From the IMG/VR virus record IMGVR_UViG_3300042305_001986, positions 54,537 through 118,536 of that record: a DNA stretch of 64,000 nt, one strand, 5' to 3'. The first letter of the stretch is position 1; each line of letters opens with the position of its first letter. This DNA comes from a virus. The notes under the pieces are model-generated. The model ran no database searches. It was not told the origin of the DNA and was given only the letters and a program-made list of their open reading frames with translations. Made by a program: the position numbers and the translations under genes. Of the stretch, positions 5,908 through 27,153 are shown in pieces.

Positions 5908-7926
5908 ATGATTGAAGATATCGACCCAAGCGAATCCAAAAAGGAAAGAAAACCAAAACAAAATCCAAACTCAAAAACCCCTGTATTAGATAATTTCTCA
6001 AGAGATTTATCCAAACTTGCGGAAGTTGGAGCCTTGGATCCTGTTGTAGGAAGAGATGAAGAAATTTTACGGATTGCACAAATTCTTTCAAGAAGAAAGA
6101 AAAACAATCCAATTATAATTGGTGAGCCCGGTTGTGGTAAAACCGCCATAGTTGAGGGTCTTGCTCAAAAGATTTTTGAAGGGGATTGTCCAAGAAACTT
6201 ATGTGACAAAAGAATCGTTTCTTTGGATATGACATCCATAGTTGCAGGAACAAAATACAGAGGACAATTTGAAGAGAGATTAAAGGTGATCTTGGAGGAA
6301 CTTCAGGAAACCAAAGAAGTTATCGTATTCATCGACGAGATACATAACATCGTGGGCGCGGGAAATAGTTCGGGATCTTTGGATGCTTCCAATATCTTTA
6401 AACCTGCTTTAGCTCGTGGTGAAATTCAATGTATAGGAGCTACGACATTAGATGAATATAGACAAAATATTGAAAAAGACGGAGCGTTAGAAAGGAGATT
6501 CCAAAAGGTTGTTGTTGAACCACCATCAGTGAAAGAAACGATTCAGATTCTCATGAATATCAAAGACAAATATGAGGATTTCCATAAAGTAATATATCAC
6601 GATGACGCAATAACCGCCTGTGTTCGTTTGGCGGACAGATATATTACAAATAGAGAATTTCCTGATAAGGCAATTGATATTTTGGATGAACTTGGTGCTA
6701 GAAGTCAGGTAACAACAAAACTTCCCGAGTCCATTGAAAAATTAAAAGAAGAAGCTGCGGATATCAAAAAACTAAAACTTGAAGTGGTTAAGGCTCAAAG
6801 ATATGAAGAAGCCGCAAATTTGAGGGATAGAGAGAAAAAAGTCTTGAAAGAACTTGAAGACCAAAAGAACAAGTTTGAAAAAGAACAAAACACAATAAGA
6901 AAAGAGATATCTGAAGATATGGTATATGATGTCGTTGCATCAATCACCAAGATACCAGTATCAAAATTATCGGCTGATGATGTTGACGCTCTGATAAACT
7001 TGGAAAATAATCTCAACGAAAAGGTGATTGGTCAACATGATGCGGTTGAAAAGATTTCAAAAGCAATCAGAAGAAACCGTCTTGGAATCAAAGACCCAAA
7101 CAGACCGATTGGTTCATTCATTTTCTTGGGGTCTACAGGGGTTGGAAAAACATATCTAGCAAAACAACTTGCAAAACAAGTTTTTGGTGATGCAAATTCT
7201 TTGATCAGGGTTGATATGAGTGAATTCCAAGAAAAACATTCTCTCAGTAGATTGATTGGATCACCACCGGGTTATGTCGGATACAATGAAGGTGGACAAC
7301 TAACAGAACAAGTTAAAAATAAACCATATTCTGTTATTTTGTTTGATGAAGTTGAAAAGGCTAACAAAGACATATTCTCTTTGATGTTACAAATCTTGGA
7401 TGACGGATACATCACCGACTCCACAGGACGGCACATCAACTTCAAGAATACTTTGATCATTATGACTTCCAACTTGGGTGTTAAAAAATTGATGGAATTT
7501 GGAACAGGTGTTGGTTTCAATACAGCATCAAGAGCTGCAAACACAGAGGAAATAAAAAGGGATATTCTAAAAAAAGAAGTCAAAAATTACTTTTCACCTG
7601 AGTTTTTGAATCGTGTCGATGAGATCGTTCTCTTTAATTCTCTAAATGAAAACGACATTCACAAAATTATTGAGATCGAGTTTGTTCAACTCAAAGATAG
7701 ATTAGATGAACTTGGTTATTACATCAACTTCGATGATAGTATATACAAACATATCTCAAAAATTGGATATGATGAGGAATTCGGAGCACGACCCCTAAAA
7801 AGAGCAATACAAGAACAGATTGAAGATTTTATATCCGAAAATGTGTTAAGGAAAAATATAGTTCTTGATAAAAAATACGAACTATATATGAAAGAGGACA
7901 AAGTGACCTTAAGAAAAAAGAGATAA
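5908..7926 (+). CDS. clpC: ClpC-type AAA+ unfoldase lacking the N-terminal Clp-repeat domain
   Basis: Walker A GEPGCGKT and GSTGVGKT, Walker B FIDE and [34 protein letters not shown]-type M domain. Confidence 0.93.
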
Positions 7927-8855: not shown

Positions 8856-9245
8856 GGGGGCGATTTTGGATTTGACCGGTATGGTCAGGCACAGAGTGCA
8901 CGTAGTGAGATGAGATCTATCACTTTAATCTACGGTTTCAAAAACAACTGGCGAAACTTTCGCAAAACTTCAGTCTATTGGTTTGATCCAAACTGAAGAG
9001 GTTTACGCAGCCTAAGGCTCCGAAAACCTACGGGTCGGTCAGGACATATACCTATGAACAGAAGTCCACTGAAGGTTGGTTACCTTAATAACCAAAGGTT
9101 GTAGTACATCTTAAAGTATTACCACCGTGGCTGAACGGTGTGAGAATTCAGATATTTCGGATTATTGTGAATTAATAATGACCTAAACGTGTAGTACTCT
9201 CTGTTTGAGATACTAGGGACGGCGGTTCGAGTCCGCCCGCCTTCA
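8856..9245 (+). ncRNA. ssrA: tmRNA; tag ORF 8950-9015 GETFAKLQSIGLIQTEEVYAA*
   Basis: 5' GGGGGCG...GGATTTGAC and 3' GAC-GGCGG-TTCGAGT-CCGCC-CGCCTTC-A form an Ala-like acceptor with G3.U70; internal ORF ends YAA-stop. Confidence 0.92.
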
Positions 9246-9268
9246 CTAAATAAACTTAATTTTCAAAA

Positions 9269-17764: not shown

Positions 17765-17785
17765 TATATTTGTGTTGTTCTTTGA
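17765..17785 (+). promoter_or_regulatory. Host-sigma -7 element plus boxA-like site for tRNA cluster
   Basis: TATATTTG then GTTCTTTGA. Confidence 0.6.
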
Positions 17786-17803
17786 TATATGAGGAAAAAA
17801 AAA

Positions 17804-17882: not shown

Positions 17883-17983
17883 AGTCAGGTAGTGGATATG
17901 TAAGCGGGCTCAAGCTCGGTAAGTCGAAAAGGTATGATCCTCTTTACGAGGCCACATTGCAGGTTCGAATCCTGTCCTGACTT
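17883..17983 (+). ncRNA. Non-canonical tRNA-like RNA (acceptor + T arm, no normal D/anticodon arm)
   Basis: AGTCAGG/CCTGACT acceptor; GCAGG-TTCGAAT-CCTGT T arm; central region non-cloverleaf. Confidence 0.7.
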
Positions 17984-17989
17984 CAAAAT

Positions 17990-18065
17990 GCGTCAGTAAC
18001 TCAATTGGTAGAGTGGTTATCTCCAAAGTAACAAGTTGTGGGTTCGAGTCCTACCTGACGTGCCA
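17990..18065 (+). tRNA. tRNA-Trp(CCA), CCA end encoded
   Basis: GCGTCAG/CTGACGT; GTTAT-CTCCAAA-GTAAC. Confidence 0.9.
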
Positions 18066-18069
18066 ATAA

Positions 18070-18140
18070 GGTCGGATGTCCGAGTGGTTAGGTGAATCTC
18101 TGCAAAAGATTTAACACTGGTTCGAATCCAGTTCCGACCT
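18070..18140 (+). tRNA. tRNA-Cys(GCA)
   Basis: GGTCGGA/TCCGACC, U73; AATCT-CTGCAAA-AGATT. Confidence 0.92.
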
Positions 18141-18144
18141 CTAC

Positions 18145-18215
18145 TTCTCCATAGTATAATGGTAAAACAACGGATTTTGGTTCCGTGGTTTTAGGTTCGA
18201 GTCCTGATGGGGAAA
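18145..18215 (+). tRNA. tRNA-Gln(TTG)
   Basis: TTCTCCA/TGGGGAA; ACGGA-TTTTGGT-TCCGT. Confidence 0.88.
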
Positions 18216-18230
18216 CAATGTTATATATTA

Positions 18231-18322
18231 GGTGTGGGCATGACCACAAATAAACAAAGGCGGGTTGGTTTCCCAACTTCGGAGAAATTCGGAGAGTCTG
18301 AGTTCGATTCTCACCCACACTC
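18231..18322 (+). ncRNA. Non-canonical tRNA-like RNA, 8-bp acceptor / 4-bp T stem
   Basis: GGTGTGGG/CCCACACT; TGAG-TTCGATT-CTCA; collapsed anticodon-like hairpin GGTTGG-TTTC-CCAACT; extra arm TTCGGA-GAAA-TTCGGA. Confidence 0.6.
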
Positions 18323-18345
18323 TAATATATAATTAATTATAAAAT

Positions 18346-18417
18346 GGCCCATTCGTCTAAAAGTAAGGACATTTGGTTTTCATCCAAAAAATCTCGGAGC
18401 GTTACCGGGATGGGCTA
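18346..18417 (+). tRNA. tRNA-Glu(TTC), atypical D and T loops
   Basis: GGCCCAT/ATGGGCT; TTTGG-TTTTCAT-CCAAA; T loop AGCGTTA. Confidence 0.82.
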
Positions 18418-18425
18418 CTAATAAA

Positions 18426-18497
18426 GGTCTATTGGTGAAGTGGCTATCATACCTGCCTGTCACGCAGGAGTAGAGGGGTCGGAACCCTCATAGACCG
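18426..18497 (+). tRNA. tRNA-Asp(GTC), atypical T loop
   Basis: GGTCTAT/ATAGACC, G73; CCTGC-CTGTCAC-GCAGG; T loop GTCGGAA. Confidence 0.87.
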
Positions 18498-18595
18498 CAT
18501 TTGTTTTATTAACTCCACCGAAAAACCCACAAATCTTTAGTTTGTGGGATAAAAGGTTTGATTAAACATTTCTTAATTTAGGAATATTTATTTAC

Positions 18596-19867
18596 GTGAG
18601 AGAGCAAATACGCAAAATTCTAAAAGAATTATTTTCAGGTGACGGTTCCGTAACCTTTAGTTTTCGTGATATGAAGGCTTTTAAACCAACATACACTAAT
18701 GCTCCGTGGAGGGTATACTTTAATGGTTTAAAAATAAAAGATGGTCAATATTCACATGGTGAAAATACATATATAGATTTGATTGGAAATGATGTTGAGT
18801 TGAGAGGTATTAATCCTATAGATTTTATGAGTGATGGAAAATCGGGTTACGTTGACCTTTACAAACTTGAAGAAATAAAACCTGATATTCGTGAAATTTT
18901 GTTCGGTAGTAAGGATAGTGGAAAAGTAAAATCAGGTGTCGGTCCTGTAACCTTTAGTTTTCGTGATATGAAAGCTTATAAACCAACATACGGTCCGTGG
19001 AGGGTATACTTTAATAACTTAGAAACCAAAAAAGGCCAATATTCACATGGTAAAAATACATATATAGATTTGATTGGAAATGATGTTGAGTTGAGAGGTA
19101 TTAATCCTACAGATTTTAATTTTACGGAAGATGGAAAATCGGGTTACGTTAAGCTTTACAAACTTGAAGAAATAAAACCTGATATTCGTGAAATTTTGTT
19201 CGGTAGTAGGAATAGTGGAGAAGTAAATTCAACTTTAATTAGGAGTGCGTTAAAAAAGGCGTTTCCAAATAATTGGAAAGAACGAGATGAAATATATAGC
19301 GCAGGTATTAGAGATATAAATACAATAGGTGAAAGAACGGGTAAGGGCGAGTCATGGTCAATTATGAATTATTTTGATACAAAAAAAGAAGTACAAAAAA
19401 AAATATCACAAAAATGGAATAATGAAGGTGAAGGAGATTTAGAGGAATGGTTAGTTGATGTATTTAAAAACGACAACAATTTTATGAAAGAGTTATTGGA
19501 TATCCAATGGAGGTCAATAGAAAATGGTTATAATACTGAGATATATGCCTCAGAAGTAATTTCTAATCATATACCAGGTAATCTTGAGTTGTTCCCTCCT
19601 GGTTCTATAATTGACCGATACGGTTCAATAGACATGATTATTGGGGGTCAGAGTTTTCAAATAAAACCTTTATCTGGTCTCCTCGTAAAAGACGGTAAAT
19701 ATTTTGTTAAAACTTATGGTATGAAGAAGGACTATAAAAGTAAAAAAATTGATTATATTGTTTATGCAAAAATAGGTGGTAAGGTATATGTTTTCCCTAA
19801 TAAAAACTATGAAGTAGGTGGTGGAGGTAGTGAAGTGACACATTTTGAAAAACCTACAATCTATTAA
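18596..19867 (+). CDS. Late protein with internal tandem duplication and possible PD-(D/E)xK-like C-terminus
   Basis: GTG start after TATTTAT; two ~97-aa near-identical repeats; IDRYGSIDMIIGGQSFQIK. Confidence 0.6.
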   Translation: MREQIRKILKELFSGDGSVTFSFRDMKAFKPTYTNAPWRVYFNGLKIKDGQYSHGENTYIDLIGNDVELRGINPIDFMSDGKSGYVDLYKLEEIKPDIREILFGSKDSGKVKSGVGPVTFSFRDMKAYKPTYGPWRVYFNNLETKKGQYSHGKNTYIDLIGNDVELRGINPTDFNFTEDGKSGYVKLYKLEEIKPDIREILFGSRNSGEVNSTLIRSALKKAFPNNWKERDEIYSAGIRDINTIGERTGKGESWSIMNYFDTKKEVQKKISQKWNNEGEGDLEEWLVDVFKNDNNFMKELLDIQWRSIENGYNTEIYASEVISNHIPGNLELFPPGSIIDRYGSIDMIIGGQSFQIKPLSGLLVKDGKYFVKTYGMKKDYKSKKIDYIVYAKIGGKVYVFPNKNYEVGGGGSEVTHFEKPTIY

Positions 19868-19971
19868 CACCTTCAGTTAAAGATTAATTTACGTAGATCG
19901 AAAAAAGTCACATCAAAATTTGGAAAGATCAATCTCTTGCCATACCTTTGTGGTGTTAAAACAAACACACC

Positions 19972-20292
19972 ATGAAAAACGTCATCTCCAACCCCCAAAA
20001 ACGGATCGGCCGTGTAACCAACAACTTCGACTACGAAACCGTAGCGAAGGTCGTAAAGGCTCTGAACCGTGAGGCGATGTATACTTCTTGGTTGGAAGTG
20101 TCACCCGACTCTTTCAACGTCCAAACACTCAAGGACTATACCACCGTCGTGATGAACCAAGCATTCACTTCCTACGAACAGGAAGGAGTGACCAACTTCG
20201 GGATGGGTGGGTTCATTGTGGACATCCGAAACCACGAAGACAAGGTAAACGTAAACGTGGCTTACGTGATTGATGAGATGGACGCCTACTAA
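19972..20292 (+). CDS. Early hypothetical protein
   Basis: TACCTTTG at 19943; C-ending codon bias typical of highly expressed genes. Confidence 0.7.
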   Translation: MKNVISNPQKRIGRVTNNFDYETVAKVVKALNREAMYTSWLEVSPDSFNVQTLKDYTTVVMNQAFTSYEQEGVTNFGMGGFIVDIRNHEDKVNVNVAYVIDEMDAY

Positions 20293-20433
20293 TAGTAGGC
20301 TCCTCTCCCCTCCCCAAAAATATAGAATAGAGGGAGGGGTTGAAACTTCAGAAGATTTGTTGTATGTTTTGGGTGTTCTTTGAAATATTGAAATAGGTAT
20401 ACAAAAAATGGTAGACGAATATATTTATATATT

Positions 20434-21087
20434 ATGAAACCATATGTATATAAAATAACGGGTAAAAATAACACCTATTACTATGGTGTAAGATGGAATT
20501 ACTTCGGTAGTCCTGAAGACGACTTATTAGTAAAGTATTTTACATCATCCGATTACATAAAAGAAATTATGAGTAAAAATGGTGTTGATTTCTTTTCAGG
20601 AGAAATAATTAAAATTCTGAACACGAGAGAAGAGGCATTACAATTAGAATATGAATTAATTAAAAAGTCAATAAATGATGACTTATGTCTTAACCGTGCA
20701 ATTGGTAAATGCACTATTTGGGACGAATTTTTATTAAAAAAACTTTCTAACTCGATGCAACATAGGTGGGAGGACCCTAATTATAGATCAAAAATCGTAG
20801 AATCAAAAAAAGGCGAGAAAAATCCAAATTATATGAAACCATCTTGGAGAAATGTAAATAGTGATGTCCAATCATGGATGAAGTCTTTTCAAATATTTGA
20901 CGATTACATCAATGAAAGTTGGGATTTCACTAAATATGGATTCGGAAGACTTATGTTACAAAAAAGATATGATATCTCTCAAGGGACCTCAAGATGTCTT
21001 ATTAAAAAAATAAAAAATGGTTGGTCCCCATATAATGATATTGATTTTATAGATTTTTATAGAGAAAACACGTCCATGGCCGGATGA
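20434..21087 (+). CDS. GIY-YIG (Seg-like) homing endonuclease
   Basis: YVYKI..KNNTYYYGVR...YFTSS...E...LNR; GEKNPNY NUMOD-like motif; TATTTAT upstream. Confidence 0.75.
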   Translation: MKPYVYKITGKNNTYYYGVRWNYFGSPEDDLLVKYFTSSDYIKEIMSKNGVDFFSGEIIKILNTREEALQLEYELIKKSINDDLCLNRAIGKCTIWDEFLLKKLSNSMQHRWEDPNYRSKIVESKKGEKNPNYMKPSWRNVNSDVQSWMKSFQIFDDYINESWDFTKYGFGRLMLQKRYDISQGTSRCLIKKIKNGWSPYNDIDFIDFYRENTSMAG

Positions 21088-21163
21088 TGAAATTGGTATA
21101 CATGTTTGACTTAAAATCAAATGGACCGAAGGGTCCGTGCGGGTTCGAGCCCCGCTCCGGCTA
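21078..21163 (+). tRNA. tRNA-Leu(TAA)
   Basis: GGCCGGA/TCCGGCT; TTTGA-CTTAAAA-TCAAA; long variable arm. Confidence 0.9.
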
Positions 21164-21181
21164 CCGCAACAATTAAAACAA

Positions 21182-21742
21182 ATGAAAGTAATTTTTATGG
21201 ATCACGATGGTGTGATCTGTTTGGAATCTGAATGGGGTTCAAGATTCGATAAACAAAAGAAATATGATCCACGCCCCACCATCAAAGAAATCCCAATCTT
21301 GGATAGGTTTGACAACTTCAATCATAGTTGTGTTGAATGTCTAAATCAGGTCATCAGAGACACCGATTGTGAGATTGTAATTTCTTCTGATTGGAGAACT
21401 TGGGCAACTTTGGAAGAAATCGGTGAATATTATGAAAGTCAGGGGATCATCAAAAAACCAATCGGTTTTACCCCTTTCATCGATCGAAGTGAAGTTCCAC
21501 CTGAGTTCGAATTCAAGATGGGTCTTGGGTTAAACCAAACCCGAGTTTTGGAAATCAGAAAATGGTTGAACAACCATCCTCACGTCGTATCATGGGTCGC
21601 AATCGATGATATGAGACTTGGAGAACAGGGGTGGGGTTTGGAACATTTTGTTTTGTCAACAGATCACAAAAATGGAATTTGTAATTCCGAAGTTAAAACC
21701 TTATTGATCGAATATTTGAATCAACCGGTTCTTATATTGTGA
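21182..21742 (+). CDS. HAD-domain protein (Swiss-army-knife RNA-repair type)
   Basis: Start MKVIFMDHDGV; IVISSDWR; R..EI..WL..HP....WVAIDD. Confidence 0.8.
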   Translation: MKVIFMDHDGVICLESEWGSRFDKQKKYDPRPTIKEIPILDRFDNFNHSCVECLNQVIRDTDCEIVISSDWRTWATLEEIGEYYESQGIIKKPIGFTPFIDRSEVPPEFEFKMGLGLNQTRVLEIRKWLNNHPHVVSWVAIDDMRLGEQGWGLEHFVLSTDHKNGICNSEVKTLLIEYLNQPVLIL

Positions 21743-21751
21743 CAATAAGTT

Positions 21752-21839
21752 GGAAGGTTACCCAAGTTGGTGAAGGGGTTTGTTTGCTAAACAAATAGGG
21801 CGAGGAATCGTCGCGTGGGTTCGAGCCCCACACCTTCCA
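21752..21839 (+). tRNA. tRNA-Ser(GCT)
   Basis: GGAAGGT/ACCTTCC; TTTGT-TTGCTAA-ACAAA; long variable arm. Confidence 0.88.
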
Positions 21840-21854
21840 CAAAAAAATAATGTT

Positions 21855-22454
21855 ATGATCAAAGTACTCGGAAATATTCCAACCTCTGAATTTGGACTTG
21901 CTTGTTCGGGAGGGGTTGACTCTATGGCCGTTTTGGATTTTTTGAGAAGATCAAATTATAATCCACACGTCCTTTATTTCAATCACAATACAGAACACGG
22001 TGATGATGCTGAAAAGTTTATCACCAAATATTGTGAGGAAAACGGTTTGAGTTTGTTTGTTGGAAGGACAGATCAAAAACCAAAATCCAACAAGGAAAAG
22101 ATGTGGTCTGATTTGAGGTATGAGTTTTTTCGATCATTTGATTTTCCAATCGTAACGTGTCACCATTTGGATGATTGTGTTGAAACATATATTTTCACTA
22201 TGACGAGGGGATTTCAATCGGTCATCCCTTATCGTAAGGAGAATGTTATTCGTCCTTTTCTTTTGACTGAAAAGTCTGAGTTCGAAAGTTGGTGTAAAAG
22301 GAAAAACGTACCTTTTATTCAAGACGAATCAAATAACTCGGTGGAATATTCAAGAAATAGAATCAGACATAATATTATTCCCGAACTTCTAAAGGTCAAC
22401 CCCGGTCTTAAAACTGTTGTGAAAAAAATGATCAAAAAAGATTTGGTGAATTGA
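21855..22454 (+). CDS. tilS: tRNA(Ile)-lysidine synthetase, catalytic domain only
   Basis: SGGVDS PP-loop, HHLDD.VET, RPFL, DESN....Y.RNRIRH..IP; followed by tRNA-CAT. Confidence 0.88.
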   Translation: MIKVLGNIPTSEFGLACSGGVDSMAVLDFLRRSNYNPHVLYFNHNTEHGDDAEKFITKYCEENGLSLFVGRTDQKPKSNKEKMWSDLRYEFFRSFDFPIVTCHHLDDCVETYIFTMTRGFQSVIPYRKENVIRPFLLTEKSEFESWCKRKNVPFIQDESNNSVEYSRNRIRHNIIPELLKVNPGLKTVVKKMIKKDLVN

Positions 22455-22505
22455 GAAATATGTAATATCTTTGTGGTGTTCTTTGAAATGTCGGAATAAT
22501 AAAAC

Positions 22506-22579
22506 CCTCCCATAGCTCAATCGGTTAGAGCGTCGGACTCATAATCCGCAGGTTCTTGGTTCAAGTCCAAGTGGGAGGA
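22506..22579 (+). tRNA. tRNA-CAT, probably Ile2 (lysidine); Met possible
   Basis: CCTCCCA/TGGGAGG; loop CTCATAA; adjacent to tilS. Confidence 0.8.
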
Positions 22580-22585
22580 CTATTT

Positions 22586-22623
22586 GACTCTATATCTCAA
22601 TTGGTAGATTATTACCTTCCAAG
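22586..22623 (+). pseudogene. 5' half of a degenerate tRNA (TCC loop)
   Basis: GACTCTA-TA-TCTCAATTGGTAGA...CTTCCAA with no T arm or 3' acceptor strand. Confidence 0.4.
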
Positions 22624-22654
22624 ATTGAGAATTCAAATTTGTCTCCTTCTTACA

Positions 22655-22745
22655 GGTCGAAAGTTCTTCACCTACAGGCTTGTTGGGCCTTTCCTCTTCT
22701 GTGAAAGAGGCTTGTTGGGCCCTTCCTGGCGTGTTGAACTCGACC
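22655..22745. ncRNA. Candidate structured RNA with twin hairpins
   Basis: Closing stem GGTCGA..GTTC..CAC/GTG..GAAC-TCGACC; 20-nt direct repeat AGGCTTGTTGGGCCYTTCCT at 22676 and 22708. Confidence 0.5.
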
Positions 22746-22750
22746 CTTTT

Positions 22751-22824
22751 TCTCCCTTAGCTCAGTCGGTTAGAGCGGTTGACTGTTAATCAATAGGTCC
22801 TTGGTTCAAGCCCAAGAGGGAGAG
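22751..22824 (+). tRNA. tRNA-Asn(GTT)
   Basis: TCTCCCT/AGGGAGA, G73; GTTGA-CTGTTAA-TCAAT. Confidence 0.92.
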
Positions 22825-22851
22825 CAAAAAATAAAAATTATCTAAATCACT

Positions 22852-23055
22852 ATGAAAAAACTAATCAACATCACAGGATTTGCGTCACTCACACTCTTCA
22901 TCCTGTCATTTATTGTATTTTTAACTTGTATCCTTTGGGATGTGCCACTCGACGGTACCCTACTTCACGACCTAATCAGATACTCTCTAGTGGGTGGGTT
23001 GACCCTTAGTTACATTTGTTTTTTCATGTTTGTTTATCGAGAGTTTAAAGACTAA
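22852..23055 (+). CDS. Small two-TM membrane protein
   Basis: 67 aa, two hydrophobic helices. Confidence 0.6.
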   Translation: MKKLINITGFASLTLFILSFIVFLTCILWDVPLDGTLLHDLIRYSLVGGLTLSYICFFMFVYREFKD

Positions 23056-23061
23056 AAACAC

Positions 23062-23159
23062 AGTCAGGTGGCGGAATTGGTTAGACGCACTCCTCAAATA
23101 AGATGTGTATAGGCTACGCGCTAATCCTATACGTACAGGTTCGAGTCCTGTCCTGACTA
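23062..23159 (+). ncRNA. Non-canonical tRNA-like RNA (Leu-type D arm, degenerate anticodon arm)
   Basis: Same AGTCAGG/CCTGACT acceptor and CAGG-TTCGA-CCTGT T arm as 17883; long arm GTATAGG/CCTATAC. Confidence 0.7.
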
Positions 23160-23175
23160 CTAAAATAATAAACTA

Positions 23176-23886
23176 ATGAAAACAATCTTTATCGGAGACA
23201 TTCATGGTCGAGACATATGGAAAAAAATCGTAGAAAGTGAAAAAGCTGATCGGGTTCTTTTCATCGGGGATTATTTTGACAGTTTCGACATTGGATCAGC
23301 AGAACAACAATATAATTTCAAGGAAATTATTGAGTTCAAAGAAAAAGGTGAATGTGAGGTCATTATGTTGATTGGTAATCATGATTTCCATTATATTAAC
23401 ACTTACGAAGTGTATAGTGGATTTCAACGGAGTGCAGGACCAGCAATTCAACTTCTCATTAAAGAAAACCTACACCACTTTCAAATGTGTTATGAGATGG
23501 ATAATATTTTGTGTTCACATGCGGGTATTGGTTATGATTGGTTGGTAAATCAAAATAGATACAAGGAAGGAGAACCTATCTCTAACTTTGTAAATGAAAT
23601 TTGGAAATACAAACCACGAAATTTTGAGTTCAACGGAATATTTGATCCAACAGGTGATGATATCATGCAAACACCGATTTGGATTCGTCCAAGAAGTTTG
23701 ATGTCGGGAAATAAAAATACTTTTTTAAATGATCAATATATTCAAGTTGTAGGTCATACAGAAGTTAAAGAAATGCCAATGAAATTGATGTTGAAAAATA
23801 AATTATTTCTAATTGATGCTTTGCCCGTTGGTAATTACTTGATCTACGAGGAAAATTATTTTATGATTGGTGTTGTAAATGGGTAG
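23176..23886 (+). CDS. Calcineurin-like metallophosphoesterase
   Basis: GDIHG, GDYFD, GNHD, SHAG, GHT motifs. Confidence 0.9.
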   Translation: MKTIFIGDIHGRDIWKKIVESEKADRVLFIGDYFDSFDIGSAEQQYNFKEIIEFKEKGECEVIMLIGNHDFHYINTYEVYSGFQRSAGPAIQLLIKENLHHFQMCYEMDNILCSHAGIGYDWLVNQNRYKEGEPISNFVNEIWKYKPRNFEFNGIFDPTGDDIMQTPIWIRPRSLMSGNKNTFLNDQYIQVVGHTEVKEMPMKLMLKNKLFLIDALPVGNYLIYEENYFMIGVVNG

Positions 23887-26415: not shown

Positions 26416-27153
26416 ATGAAAACCATGATTGAGAATCAAACACCATATCTTGGAAAGGTAAAATTCAGGTTCCAAAAATCTCCGAATTATATCGGGAAGA
26501 GTATCCTGAACCAAGTTCATTTGGATCTCGGATTTGTTAAGTTGGTTAGTAGGGTTTTTCCCGAAAAGGACAAGAATGGATGGATTCCGGACATTAACAA
26601 AATTTATAAGATTAACAGATTTACCGGCGGATACATCAGGAAATATTCTTGGTCTCACTCGGGAGAAACCTTTAACATTCCAAACTCATTTGTTTCTAAA
26701 GATGGAACTTTGATCGGAGATCTAAGGACAGGTTGGTCGTATTATCAAAACAATTTAAAAGTTTGTGATGATTTTCCAAAAGGTGTTGCGATCAAATACG
26801 ATGATGTTGAAAAAACAACTCATTATGCATCTCTAAAATATGGAACACCAAAAATAGTTGGATATGTAACTTCAACACATAGGGGTGAATCATTATTCAA
26901 AATCGGTGATAGATACTTTGAATCCGACTATATTCCAAACATCCAAGATTATGATGAAAATGAATGGAATAAATACAATTCCGAATTTATTCAATCTATA
27001 AAAAACGCAAAAGATTCCAACGAAAGAAAAAAGATTGAAGAAGGTGGAATCAGAAATTTCATACCATTTTCAAGGTTAGGAAAAAAAAAGATCAAGACAT
27101 TGTCTGAAGCAAAACAATCAGCAATAAATCTGTATACATATCTTTCGTCATGA
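26416..27153 (+). CDS. Hypothetical protein
   Basis: 245-aa ORF. Confidence 0.65.
   Translation: MKTMIENQTPYLGKVKFRFQKSPNYIGKSILNQVHLDLGFVKLVSRVFPEKDKNGWIPDINKIYKINRFTGGYIRKYSWSHSGETFNIPNSFVSKDGTLIGDLRTGWSYYQNNLKVCDDFPKGVAIKYDDVEKTTHYASLKYGTPKIVGYVTSTHRGESLFKIGDRYFESDYIPNIQDYDENEWNKYNSEFIQSIKNAKDSNERKKIEEGGIRNFIPFSRLGKKKIKTLSEAKQSAINLYTYLSS

What the first reader, a model, noticed from the sequence alone, without database searches (positions are those of the whole stretch)
17883..23159. Two tRNA-like RNAs share acceptor and T arms but lack a usable anticodon arm
Seen: 17883-17983 and 23062-23159 have the same acceptor stem AGTCAGG/CCTGACT and T arm (R)CAGG-TTCGA(R)T-CCTGT, but unrelated middles. 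The first has no D arm (GTGG/CCAC stem enclosing two hairpins); the second has a Leu-type D arm, a non-pairing anticodon arm and a long extra stem. Both contain CTCAA. Inference: conserved top halves with free lower halves suggest selection for a non-decoding role, such as decoy for tRNA-targeting defences, aminoacyl donor, or RNase P/Z processing punctuation.
Basis: partly seen in the sequence, partly recalled or inferred. Interest (0 to 1): 0.7.

Follow-up and report, generated by a model that had tools for sequence, protein, structure and literature searches.

The report
Phage leucine-tRNA shells carrying cargo RNAs
The two odd tRNA look-alikes are real genes of a very large family, found almost only in uncultured phages, that keeps the top half of a leucine tRNA and puts a different folded RNA where the codon-reading arm should be; what the inserts do is still unknown.

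Summary
17883-17983 (E1) and 23062-23159 (E2) share the acceptor stem AGTCAGG/CCTGACT and a T arm, have unrelated middles and lack an anticodon arm.

They are not a local oddity. The shared 3' half occurs in at least 120 viral contigs (165 copies, scan stopped at its limit). It occurs in only 20 contigs of 185,579 species genomes, all of them MAG contigs.

Family members keep a leucine-type D arm, U48, the T arm and mostly A73. In place of the anticodon and variable arms they carry hypervariable structured inserts: 312 distinct elements, 198 with a one-off insert.

Both inserts of this window are conserved in related phages, with compensatory base-pair changes. The middles are therefore selected cargo, not free filler.

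Best reading: a tRNA-Leu-derived chassis gets small cargo RNAs cut out and stabilised by the tRNA maturation machinery. The cargo is the effector, and its target is unknown.

E2 keeps every element that E. coli LeuRS needs, so it may also be leucylated. E1 (U73, D loop replaced) probably is not.

This scan found the same family at least five times before on other DNA. Seven literature searches found no description of it. The closest known are the phage T5 'tRNA-like stable RNAs' RNA1 and RNA2, whose function is also unknown.

The parts
17883..17983 (+). E1: anticodon-less tRNA-shaped RNA gene, 101 nt including the discriminator U at 17983. It lies 6 nt after tRNA-Gly and 6 nt before tRNA-Trp.
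   Evidence: Family model R1 scores it 45.9 bits, above every real tRNA of the window.
17883..17889 (+). E1 acceptor stem, 5' strand AGTCAGG. It pairs with 17976-17982 (CCTGACT).
   Evidence: 7 of 7 pairs kept in all 5 distinct relatives.
17892..17955 (+). E1 cargo domain. A D-stem-like GTGG/CCAC stem encloses an inner stem GUAA/UUAC and two hairpins; the first hairpin has the loop UCAA.
   Evidence: Consensus fold and covariation: 3 pairs changed on both sides, 100% of cells paired.
17959..17975 (+). E1 T arm: GCAGG-TTCGAAT-CCTGT.
   Evidence: G49-U65 becomes G49-C65 in relatives.
23062..23159 (+). E2: anticodon-less Leu-type tRNA-shaped RNA gene, 98 nt including A73 at 23159. It lies between a 67-aa ORF (stop at 23055) and the metallophosphatase gene (start at 23176).
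   Evidence: R1 scores it 61.4 bits, E 5e-15.
23069..23088 (+). E2 positions U8 and G9 plus the Leu-type D arm (GGCGGAAUUGGUUAGACGC, with A14, A15 and G18G19).
   Evidence: It matches the family consensus.
23089..23106 (+). E2 unpaired linker in place of the anticodon arm. It contains AAUAAGA, which is conserved in relatives.
23107..23132 (+). E2 cargo hairpin at the variable-arm position: 7-bp stem GUAUAGG/CCUAUAC and 12-nt loop CUACGCGCUAAU.
   Evidence: The loop motif CUACRCGYURAU is kept while the stem covaries: pair 46:71 reads CG in 6, UA in 4 and UG in 1.
23135..23158 (+). E2 T arm (ACAGG-TTCGAGT-CCTGT) and the acceptor 3' strand CCTGACT.
17775..17788 (+). Promoter-like motif TTGTTCTTTGATAT upstream of the tRNA-Gly/E1/Trp/Cys/Gln operon. 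It is one of four copies in the window.
   Evidence: 4 matches against 0.19 expected. The other copies lie upstream of the tmRNA, of ORF 20434 and of tRNA-Met.

Best explanation
E1 and E2 are functional, non-decoding RNA genes of a large phage family built on a tRNA-Leu chassis.

Shown: the chassis consists of the 7-bp acceptor stem AGUCAGG/CCUGACU, the T arm, U48 and, in most members, the Leu-type D arm. It keeps the L-shaped 'top half' and elbow of a tRNA.

Inferred steps:
1. The element is transcribed inside tRNA or mRNA operons.
2. RNase P cuts it at its 5' end.
3. It is trimmed and given CCA at its 3' end like its tRNA neighbours.
4. It then survives as a stable RNA of about 100 nt.

Where the anticodon and variable arms would be (in E1, inside the D loop) it displays a folded cargo RNA. 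That cargo is the working part and differs from gene to gene.

E1 and E2 carry two different cargos, each conserved in related lake phages. The cargo targets are unknown. I infer binding to a host or phage protein or RNA, not base-pairing to the phage's own genome.
For: Family:
- 160 of 165 copies have the matching 5' strand.
- U8 is present in 142/160, A14 in 124/160 and A15 in 133/160.
- U48 is present in 156/168.

RNA-level selection on the chassis:
- In a sample anchored on the 5' half (107 distinct elements), 12 have T stems with pairs changed on both sides and still paired.
- 84 of the 107 keep CCTGACT exactly.

Not a host tRNA:
- Only 20 hits in 185,579 species genomes, all on MAG contigs.
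- No hit in 50,697 GenBank phage records.

Cargo is selected:
- E1 relatives: 5 distinct sequences in 9 loci, 3 pairs changed on both sides, 100% of cells paired; 3 of 500 shuffles reach the covariation score and the slid controls give 0-1.
- The stem of the E2 hairpin covaries while its loop is kept.
- Across 168 cargo representatives the mean folding z-score is -0.95, t-test p about 1e-9.
- 45 cargo clusters recur across contigs.

Handled like a tRNA gene:
- E1 sits 6 nt from tRNA-Gly and 6 nt from tRNA-Trp.
- The base after the discriminator is C in 150/165 elements and in 521/532 real tRNAs of the same loci.
- E1-like genes abut tRNA-Gly or tRNA-Thr, or lie about 100 nt after tRNA-Met, in different phages.

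Model: family model R1 ranks E2 (61.4 bits) and E1 (45.9) above all 17 real tRNAs of the window; the best of those scores 42.6.
Against: - Processing, CCA addition and accumulation of E1 or E2 were not shown. The four metatranscriptome runs are contigs, and none covers either cargo.
- No cargo matched any Rfam family, so no cargo function is known.
- The E1 and E2 alignments hold only 5 and 6 distinct sequences of close kin, so the covariation counts are small.
- No protein partner recurs near the elements: the commonest neighbour cluster is in 16 of about 160 loci.
- The acceptor stem is nearly invariant in sequence, more than folding alone requires. This hints at a sequence-specific reader, or at copying between genes, which this explanation does not name.
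- One relative (L148) has a broken acceptor stem.
Confidence: 0.6

Rival explanations
1. Leucine-accepting tRNA mimics. The family keeps exactly the part of tRNA-Leu that LeuRS reads, so the RNAs are charged with leucine and act through the charged end. They could be an aminoacyl donor for a non-ribosomal transferase, or a sink for LeuRS or EF-Tu. The cargo would modulate or target that activity. This reading can coexist with the scaffold reading.
For: - A73 is present in 152/165 elements and 89/107, against 355/532 real tRNAs of the same loci.
- The D arm UGGCGGAAUUGGUAGACGC carries A14, A15 and G18G19, and U48 is present in 156/168.
- Passages of the review PMC9976931 state that E. coli LeuRS needs A73, A15-U48, G18G19 and A20a. 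[quoted passage not shown]
- E2 has all of these elements.
Against: - E1 has U73, and its relatives have G or A. Its D loop is replaced, so at least this subfamily is not built for LeuRS.
- A73 is also the commonest discriminator in general.
- The identity rules come from E. coli, whereas the hosts here are probably Bacteroidota.
- I found no aminoacyl-tRNA-using transferase among the 41 distinct window proteins scanned; most of the genome was not scanned.
Confidence: 0.2
2. Decoys for host defences that attack tRNAs. Many copies of a tRNA top half would soak up nucleases or transferases that act on the acceptor end or the elbow.
For: - The elements lie in an accessory region that also holds RNA-repair-type genes (HAD_SAK_2, metallophosphatase) and a Tad6-like Thoeris inhibitor gene.
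- The acceptor stem is nearly invariant, and some phages carry up to 7 copies.
Against: - There is no anticodon loop, so anticodon nucleases have nothing to cut.
- A decoy needs no conserved, covarying cargo.
- No defence system is known to read this acceptor sequence.
Confidence: 0.1
3. Pure processing punctuation. The elements exist only to give RNase P and the 3' processing enzymes a place to cut polycistronic transcripts.
For: - E2 sits between two protein genes (7 nt after a stop codon, 16 nt before a start codon), and E1 sits between tRNAs.
- Minimal members of 44-54 nt exist.
Against: - Cargo of 30 to more than 100 nt is conserved and covaries.
- Real tRNAs on both sides of E1 already give cutting sites.
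Confidence: 0.06
4. Decaying tRNA-Leu pseudogenes, or E2 as a real tRNA-Leu(CAA) with a short intron.
For: - With introns allowed, ARAGORN calls E2 tRNA-Leu(caa) with a 7-nt intron.
- The region shows tRNA gene turnover: 22581-22750 is a degenerate tRNA-like stretch, where close relatives have tRNA-Thr directly after tRNA-Met.
- L148 has a broken acceptor stem.
Against: - The stems are kept, with compensatory changes, in hundreds of copies.
- No anticodon stem can form in E2.
- No group I intron or other intron family was found.
- The same cargo is kept in different phages and array contexts.
Confidence: 0.04

Closest known systems
Phage T5 RNA1 and RNA2 (AY543070.1, 30501-30644 and 32959-33083, annotated 'tRNA-like stable RNA with unknown functions')
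   Same: - They lie in the phage tRNA gene region among tRNAs and homing endonuclease genes.
- As I read the sequence, RNA1 has a Leu-type D arm (GGAATTGGTAGAC) and a T arm separated by about 75 nt of other sequence.
- RNA2 ends with the T arm GCAGG-TTCGAAT-CCTGT, identical to that of E1, and starts with an A1-U72 pair.
- Their function is also unknown.
   Different: - The acceptor stems differ.
- Family model R1 gives only 13.3 bits (RNA1) and 27.5 bits (part of RNA2), below T5 tRNA-Lys at 34.4 bits.
- blastn of E2 finds nothing in GenBank phages.
- T5 has single genes, not a many-cargo family on one fixed chassis.
Engineered 'tRNA scaffold' for expressing recombinant RNA in E. coli (Ponchon and Dardel; PMC3753655, seen as search listing and abstract only)
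   Same: A tRNA body with the anticodon arm replaced by an RNA of interest, so that the cell processes and protects it like a tRNA. This is the same design principle.
   Different: It is man-made. My recollection that it is usually based on tRNA-Lys or tRNA-Met comes from no call. Here the design is natural, Leu-based and present in hundreds of versions.
tmRNA (Rfam RF00023)
   Same: A tRNA top half (acceptor stem and T arm, no anticodon arm) with a large domain inserted at the anticodon side. It is processed by RNase P and is carried by phages; this window has one at 8856-9246.
   Different: The elements have no G3-U70 alanine identity pair (they have U3-A70), no tag reading frame and no pseudoknot ring, and they give no Rfam tmRNA hit. 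They are also far shorter.
Minimal tRNA-Leu substrates of E. coli LeuRS (Larkin et al. 2002, as summarised in PMC9976931, passages read)
   Same: They lack the anticodon and variable arms and keep A73 and the D/T-loop tertiary contacts. This is the same set of parts that E2 and most family members keep.
   Different: They are laboratory constructs. Charging of the phage RNAs is untested, and E1 lacks A73 and the D loop.
YrlA / bacterial Y RNA-like tRNA mimics (Rfam RF02553)
   Same: Non-decoding RNAs with a tRNA-like module, some of them in phages.
   Different: The weak hit of 26.1 bits against a gathering score of 69 spans the end of E1 and the start of tRNA-Trp. As I recall, and from no call, in YrlA the tRNA-like part is internal to a Ro-binding stem; here the RNA ends form the acceptor stem.

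Membership tests
Canonical decoding tRNA (Rfam RF00005, ARAGORN) | 7-bp acceptor stem and 5-bp T stem with a TTCRANY loop | tested here: met
   Both elements have them.
Canonical decoding tRNA (Rfam RF00005, ARAGORN) | Anticodon stem of 5 bp with a 7-nt loop carrying U33 | tested here: not met
   E1 has a tetraloop hairpin and a second hairpin instead. In E2 the 18 nt after the D arm do not pair.
Canonical decoding tRNA (Rfam RF00005, ARAGORN) | Called by the standard tRNA finders | tested here: inconclusive
   ARAGORN with default settings calls neither. Rfam scores E2 at 37.4 bits (above the gathering score of 29) and E1 at 24.4 bits (below it). ARAGORN calls E2 only if an intron is allowed.
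Phage Leu-tRNA-shell family (unnamed; defined here and in earlier notes of this scan) | Acceptor stem AGUCAGG/CCUGACU and T arm RCAGG-UUCRANU-CCUGY | tested here: met
   Both E1 and E2 have them.
Phage Leu-tRNA-shell family (unnamed; defined here and in earlier notes of this scan) | Leu-type D arm UGGCGGAAU(U)GGUAGACGC | tested here: inconclusive
   E2 has it. E1 does not: a GUGG/CCAC stem with a 56-nt insert takes its place. Other members also carry D-loop inserts (L026, L062, L117).
Phage Leu-tRNA-shell family (unnamed; defined here and in earlier notes of this scan) | A73, and U48 before the T stem | tested here: inconclusive
   E2 has A73 and U48. E1 has U73 and U48. In the family A73 is present in 152/165 and U48 in 156/168.
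Phage Leu-tRNA-shell family (unnamed; defined here and in earlier notes of this scan) | Scores above real tRNAs with a covariance model of the chassis | tested here: met
   With model R1, E2 scores 61.4 bits and E1 45.9 bits; the best real tRNA of the window scores 42.6.
Phage T5 RNA1/RNA2 tRNA-like stable RNAs | Lies in a phage tRNA gene cluster and is tRNA-like at its ends | tested here: met
Phage T5 RNA1/RNA2 tRNA-like stable RNAs | Sequence or profile homology | tested here: inconclusive
   R1 gives 13.3 and 27.5 bits on the T5 RNAs, below a T5 tRNA at 34.4. blastn gives no hit. The RNA2 T arm is identical to that of E1.
Phage T5 RNA1/RNA2 tRNA-like stable RNAs | Accumulates as a stable processed RNA | not testable with these tools
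   The RNA runs were available only as contigs, and none covers the cargo of E1 or E2.
tmRNA | G3-U70 pair, tag reading frame, Rfam RF00023 match | tested here: not met
   Pair 3:70 is U-A. There is no RF00023 match at either element.
LeuRS substrate (E. coli identity set) | A73, A15-U48, G18G19 and intact D/T-loop contacts | tested here: inconclusive
   E2 has them all and E1 does not. The rules come from PMC9976931.
LeuRS substrate (E. coli identity set) | Is actually aminoacylated with leucine | not testable with these tools
   This needs an in vitro charging assay.

The most novel reading that the evidence does not exclude
Phages use one fixed leucine-tRNA chassis as a natural display and expression platform for a fast-turning library of small structured RNAs, such as aptamer-like inhibitors of host defence or host regulators. 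New cargos would be swapped in by recombination at the invariant ends. Members with the full leucine identity set would in addition be charged by LeuRS. That would make this an RNA counterpart of the protein anti-defence gene islands.
Probability: 0.2. Interest if true: 0.9.

Novelty: new variant of a known kind. Interest (0 to 1): 0.7.

Why it matters
If the reading holds, phages invented the 'tRNA scaffold' trick long before biotechnology did, and they use it at scale. The contigs fetched here alone hold hundreds of different small structured RNAs, each on the same chassis. None has a known function and none is in Rfam.

That would open a large, easily recognised class of phage non-coding RNAs to experiment. 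It would also give a ready-made natural chassis for RNA expression.

It could finally assign a role to the T5-type 'tRNA-like stable RNAs', which are still annotated in the T5 record as of unknown function.

The retained LeuRS identity set also makes a clear question testable: are anticodon-less RNAs charged in vivo, and what for?

Tried and rejected
**Expression of E1 and E2**
- Four metatranscriptome runs were laid at 90% likeness. They are contigs, and none covers either cargo.
- They do hold contigs with the family's chassis ends and other middles (joints 23077/23078 to 23134 in 3 runs, sides 18-24 nt).
- They also hold contigs about 99% identical to nearby phage genes (19952-20275, 21335-21628).
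- DNA carry-over cannot be excluded, so neither expression nor its absence can be claimed.

**Antisense targets**
- The longest exact complementary match of either cargo to the 118.5-kb contig is 11 nt, within the range given by shuffled cargos.
- A cargo-versus-loci blastn gave only hits to other family members and a few 16-18-nt matches at E 0.001-0.01.

**Known RNA families in the cargos**
- Rfam at E up to 10 on the window stretch, and up to 0.05 on 20 loci, gave only tRNA, tmRNA, GOLLD and freshwater-1 beside the elements.

**A recurrent protein partner**
- 1,767 ORFs from about 160 loci were clustered. The top cluster is in 16 loci (DUF932); then come terminases, VRR-NUC, a methylase and a sigma factor. 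There is no partner in the flanks; whole genomes were not available.

**Host tRNA mimicry**
- The 3' half is not found in any isolate genome.

**Single-sequence folding**
- This was weak: z = -1.85 for E1 and -0.73 for E2.

**Third element**
- 18231-18316 is not a member by model R1.

**Literature**
- Seven searches found no description of the family.
- The catalogue of Fremin and Bhatt, PMC10690425 (passages read), lists 'tRNA or tRNA-like' candidates from IMG/VR. Some of these may overlap the family; its supplementary tables could not be seen.

Full report
**What is in the window**

The window is the last 64 kb of a 118.5-kb phage-like contig. ARAGORN finds 17 tRNA genes and a tmRNA in it.

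- E1 (17883-17983) and E2 (23062-23159) share the acceptor stem AGTCAGG/CCTGACT.
- Their T arms are GCAGG-TTCGAAT-CCTGT and ACAGG-TTCGAGT-CCTGT.
- The joint pattern hits only these two places; 100 shuffles gave none.
- ARAGORN with default settings calls neither.
- Rfam tRNA gives E2 37.4 bits (gathering score 29) and E1 24.4 bits.
- With introns allowed, ARAGORN forces E2 into a tRNA-Leu(CAA) with a 7-nt intron. No anticodon stem can form there.

**They belong to a very large family**

I scanned IMG/VR with the 23-nt 3' half. These hold 165 copies, up to 7 in one 5-kb stretch.

- In 160 of the 165 copies the matching 5' strand lies upstream.
- In most it is followed by UGGCGGAAU(U)GGUAGACGC, the classic tRNA-Leu D arm.
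- Then comes an insert of very variable length and sequence. Whole elements are 44-190 nt long, median 98.
- Then come U48 and the T arm.

Pooling all fetched loci, I counted 347 elements in 234 loci. They make 312 distinct sequences: 198 have a one-off insert, and the rest form 45 insert clusters that recur across contigs.

Inserts are hairpins or multi-helix domains, not anticodon arms. As a class they fold better than shuffled versions: mean z -0.95 for 168 representatives, p about 1e-9.

**The chassis is selected as RNA**

A second scan was anchored on the 5' half and left the 3' half free. Among its 107 distinct elements:
- 84 keep CCTGACT exactly.
- 52 keep the commonest T arm.
- 12 have T stems in which one or more pairs changed on both sides and still pair.
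- 89 have A as the discriminator.

Real tRNAs of the same loci (532 scored) have A73 in 355. In 521 of them C follows the discriminator, as it does in 150/165 family elements. The 3' gene style is therefore that of the neighbouring tRNAs.

**It is not a host tRNA**

The same 23-mer occurs in only 20 contigs of 185,579 species genomes. All 20 are MAG contigs. By my reading of their titles, 11 are binned to Bacteroidota lineages. GenBank phages give no match to E2.

Contigs that carry the family range from fragments to more than 340 kb. The stretch around the elements is held at 74-97% of its sampled words by 15 lake-water metagenome runs, one of which may be the source.

**Both cargos of this window are conserved**

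E1-type elements were found in 8 further loci, giving 5 distinct sequences in all. The consensus fold has these parts:
- the acceptor stem;
- a GUGG/CCAC stem at the D-stem position;
- an inner GUAA/UUAC stem;
- two hairpins;
- the T arm.

All 145 cells pair, and 3 pairs changed on both sides. 3 of 500 shuffles reach the covariation score, and the slid controls give 0-1 pairs. These are few and closely related sequences, so this is modest evidence.

E1-type genes abut tRNA-Gly here and tRNA-Thr in other phages, and lie about 100 nt after tRNA-Met in others. The element is therefore a discrete gene that is kept while its neighbours change. Its discriminator is U, G or A.

E2-type cargo was found in 14 loci; 10 of them were aligned with E2. 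The AAUAAGA linker and the 12-nt loop CUACRCGYURAU are kept, while the hairpin stem changes with compensation: pair 46:71 reads CG in 6, UA in 4 and UG in 1. One relative, L148, has a damaged acceptor stem.

A covariance model of the chassis built from 25 short members ranks E2 (61.4 bits) and E1 (45.9) above every real tRNA of the window, whose best score is 42.6. It finds no third member.

**Context**

E1 lies in a tight operon of tRNA-Gly, E1, Trp, Cys and Gln with 3-6-nt spacers, followed after a 129-nt gap by Glu and Asp. A promoter-like motif precedes the operon. The motif occurs four times in the window against 0.19 expected, including upstream of the tmRNA.

E2 lies between a 67-aa ORF and a metallophosphatase gene. 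Nearby genes include:
- HNH and GIY-YIG-type homing endonucleases;
- a HAD_SAK_2 'RNA repair' domain protein;
- a TilS catalytic-domain protein;
- a Tad6-like Thoeris inhibitor.

At the matching position, one 66%-identical relative has a family member with a different cargo and a compensated T stem (ACAAG/CUUGU). Another relative has none.

**How it most likely works**

Shown:
- The elements keep the parts that give a tRNA its top half and elbow.
- They are embedded like tRNA genes.
- They carry cargo that is itself under selection.

Inferred:
- RNase P and the 3' maturation enzymes release them, and the tRNA-like fold stabilises them.
- The cargo acts on some host or phage component.

E2 and most of the family also keep the full set of elements that E. 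coli LeuRS needs. The missing arms are exactly the ones LeuRS can do without (PMC9976931, passages read). Leucylation is therefore a live additional possibility for E2-type members, but not for E1.

What I could not find:
- targets by complementarity;
- known RNA families in the cargo;
- a recurrent neighbouring protein;
- direct evidence that E1 or E2 is expressed.

**Comparison with what is known**

The T5 record annotates RNA1 and RNA2 as 'tRNA-like stable RNA with unknown functions' within its tRNA region.

- Reading the sequences, RNA1 has a Leu-type D arm and a T arm about 75 nt apart.
- RNA2 ends in the same T arm as E1.
- The chassis model scores them at or below T5's real tRNAs.

They therefore share the architecture, but membership is not shown. 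The engineered tRNA scaffold, tmRNA and minimal LeuRS substrates each share one aspect.

Seven literature searches found no description of this family. Supplementary tables of the IMG/VR structured-RNA catalogue (PMC10690425) could not be seen and may list some members.

**Earlier notes of this scan**

Notes from other genomes describe the same family at least five times, with the same 'job unknown' verdict and the T5 comparison. I reached the family reading, before reading them. I took the T5 lead from them and checked it.

**Verdict**

The elements are real and under selection, and they do not decode. The 'free lower halves' idea is wrong, because the lower halves are the cargo. The function remains open.

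Noticed in passing
window 18231-18316: A third tRNA-shaped stretch lies between tRNA-Gln and tRNA-Glu. It has a different acceptor stem (GGTGTGG/CCACACT), a 4-bp T stem with the loop TTCGATT, and a 59-nt middle with two hairpins. Neither Rfam tRNA (E up to 10) nor chassis model R1 hits it. I found it only in two near-identical relatives.
   Followed up: partly
window 22581-22750: A degenerate tRNA-like stretch and a direct repeat (AGGCTTGTTGGGCC, twice) lie between tRNA-Met and tRNA-Asn. In two very close relatives (L161, L162) a tRNA-Thr(tgt) follows tRNA-Met directly, so a tRNA gene seems to have been lost or replaced here.
   Followed up: partly
window 8839, 17775, 20373, 22476: The promoter-like motif GTGTTCTTTGAWAT occurs four times against 0.19 expected. 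Each copy lies 15-60 nt upstream of a stable-RNA operon (tmRNA, tRNA-Gly, tRNA-Met) or of the homing endonuclease gene.
   Followed up: no
window 21780-22454 and 22506-22580: The phage encodes a short protein that matches the catalytic N-domain of tRNA lysidine synthetase TilS (TIGR02432, 120.5 bits, cut-off 93.6). It lies just upstream of a tRNA with the anticodon CAT, which may therefore be a tRNA-Ile2 and not a tRNA-Met.
   Followed up: partly
window 21137-21742, 23176-23886, 26416-27153: A HAD_SAK_2 ('Swiss Army Knife RNA repair') domain protein, a calcineurin-like phosphoesterase and a Tad6-like Thoeris inhibitor (33 bits, cut-off 27) lie among the tRNA genes. The region looks like an RNA-repair and anti-defence accessory region.
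   Followed up: no
window 5908-7926 and 8856-9246: A ClpB/ClpA-type double AAA+ protein gene lies about 0.9 kb upstream of the phage tmRNA gene, with an aminopeptidase-like gene on the opposite strand between them. The tmRNA tag peptide is GETFAKLQSIGLIQTEEVYAA.
   Followed up: no
window 18596-19867: The 423-aa ORF after the first tRNA block has no Pfam or PHROG match. It contains a direct repeat of about 300 nt (compare 18640-18900 with 18940-19200).
   Followed up: no
L048:13032-13101 (- strand): One family member on the AGTCAGG chassis carries what looks like a proper tRNA-Lys anticodon arm (stem CCGAT/ATCGG, loop CTTTTAA) and is 70 nt long. The chassis can therefore also host a decoding arm.
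   Followed up: no
L169 and L171 (5' half at 1912 and 5114); L026, L062, L117: Cargo is not always at the anticodon position. Two members have a 50-85-nt insert inside the 3' strand of the acceptor stem, and several have inserts inside the D loop, as E1 does.
   Followed up: no
L156, about 8 nt downstream of its E1-like element: ARAGORN calls a 75-nt tRNA with the anticodon TCA (labelled SeC) next to the E1-type gene. This hints that this related phage may read UGA.
   Followed up: no
L031:1477-1884, L017:4124-4186: A GOLLD RNA (298.8 bits) and a near-threshold freshwater-1 RNA (70.1 bits, gathering score 72) lie in the same tRNA regions as family members in other lake phages.
   Followed up: no
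window 19952-20275: The 106-aa ORF 19972-20292 is covered by RNA-library contigs in three metatranscriptome runs of three studies, with 2-3 differences in 268-324 nt. This phage or a very close relative is therefore present in those RNA samples.
   Followed up: no
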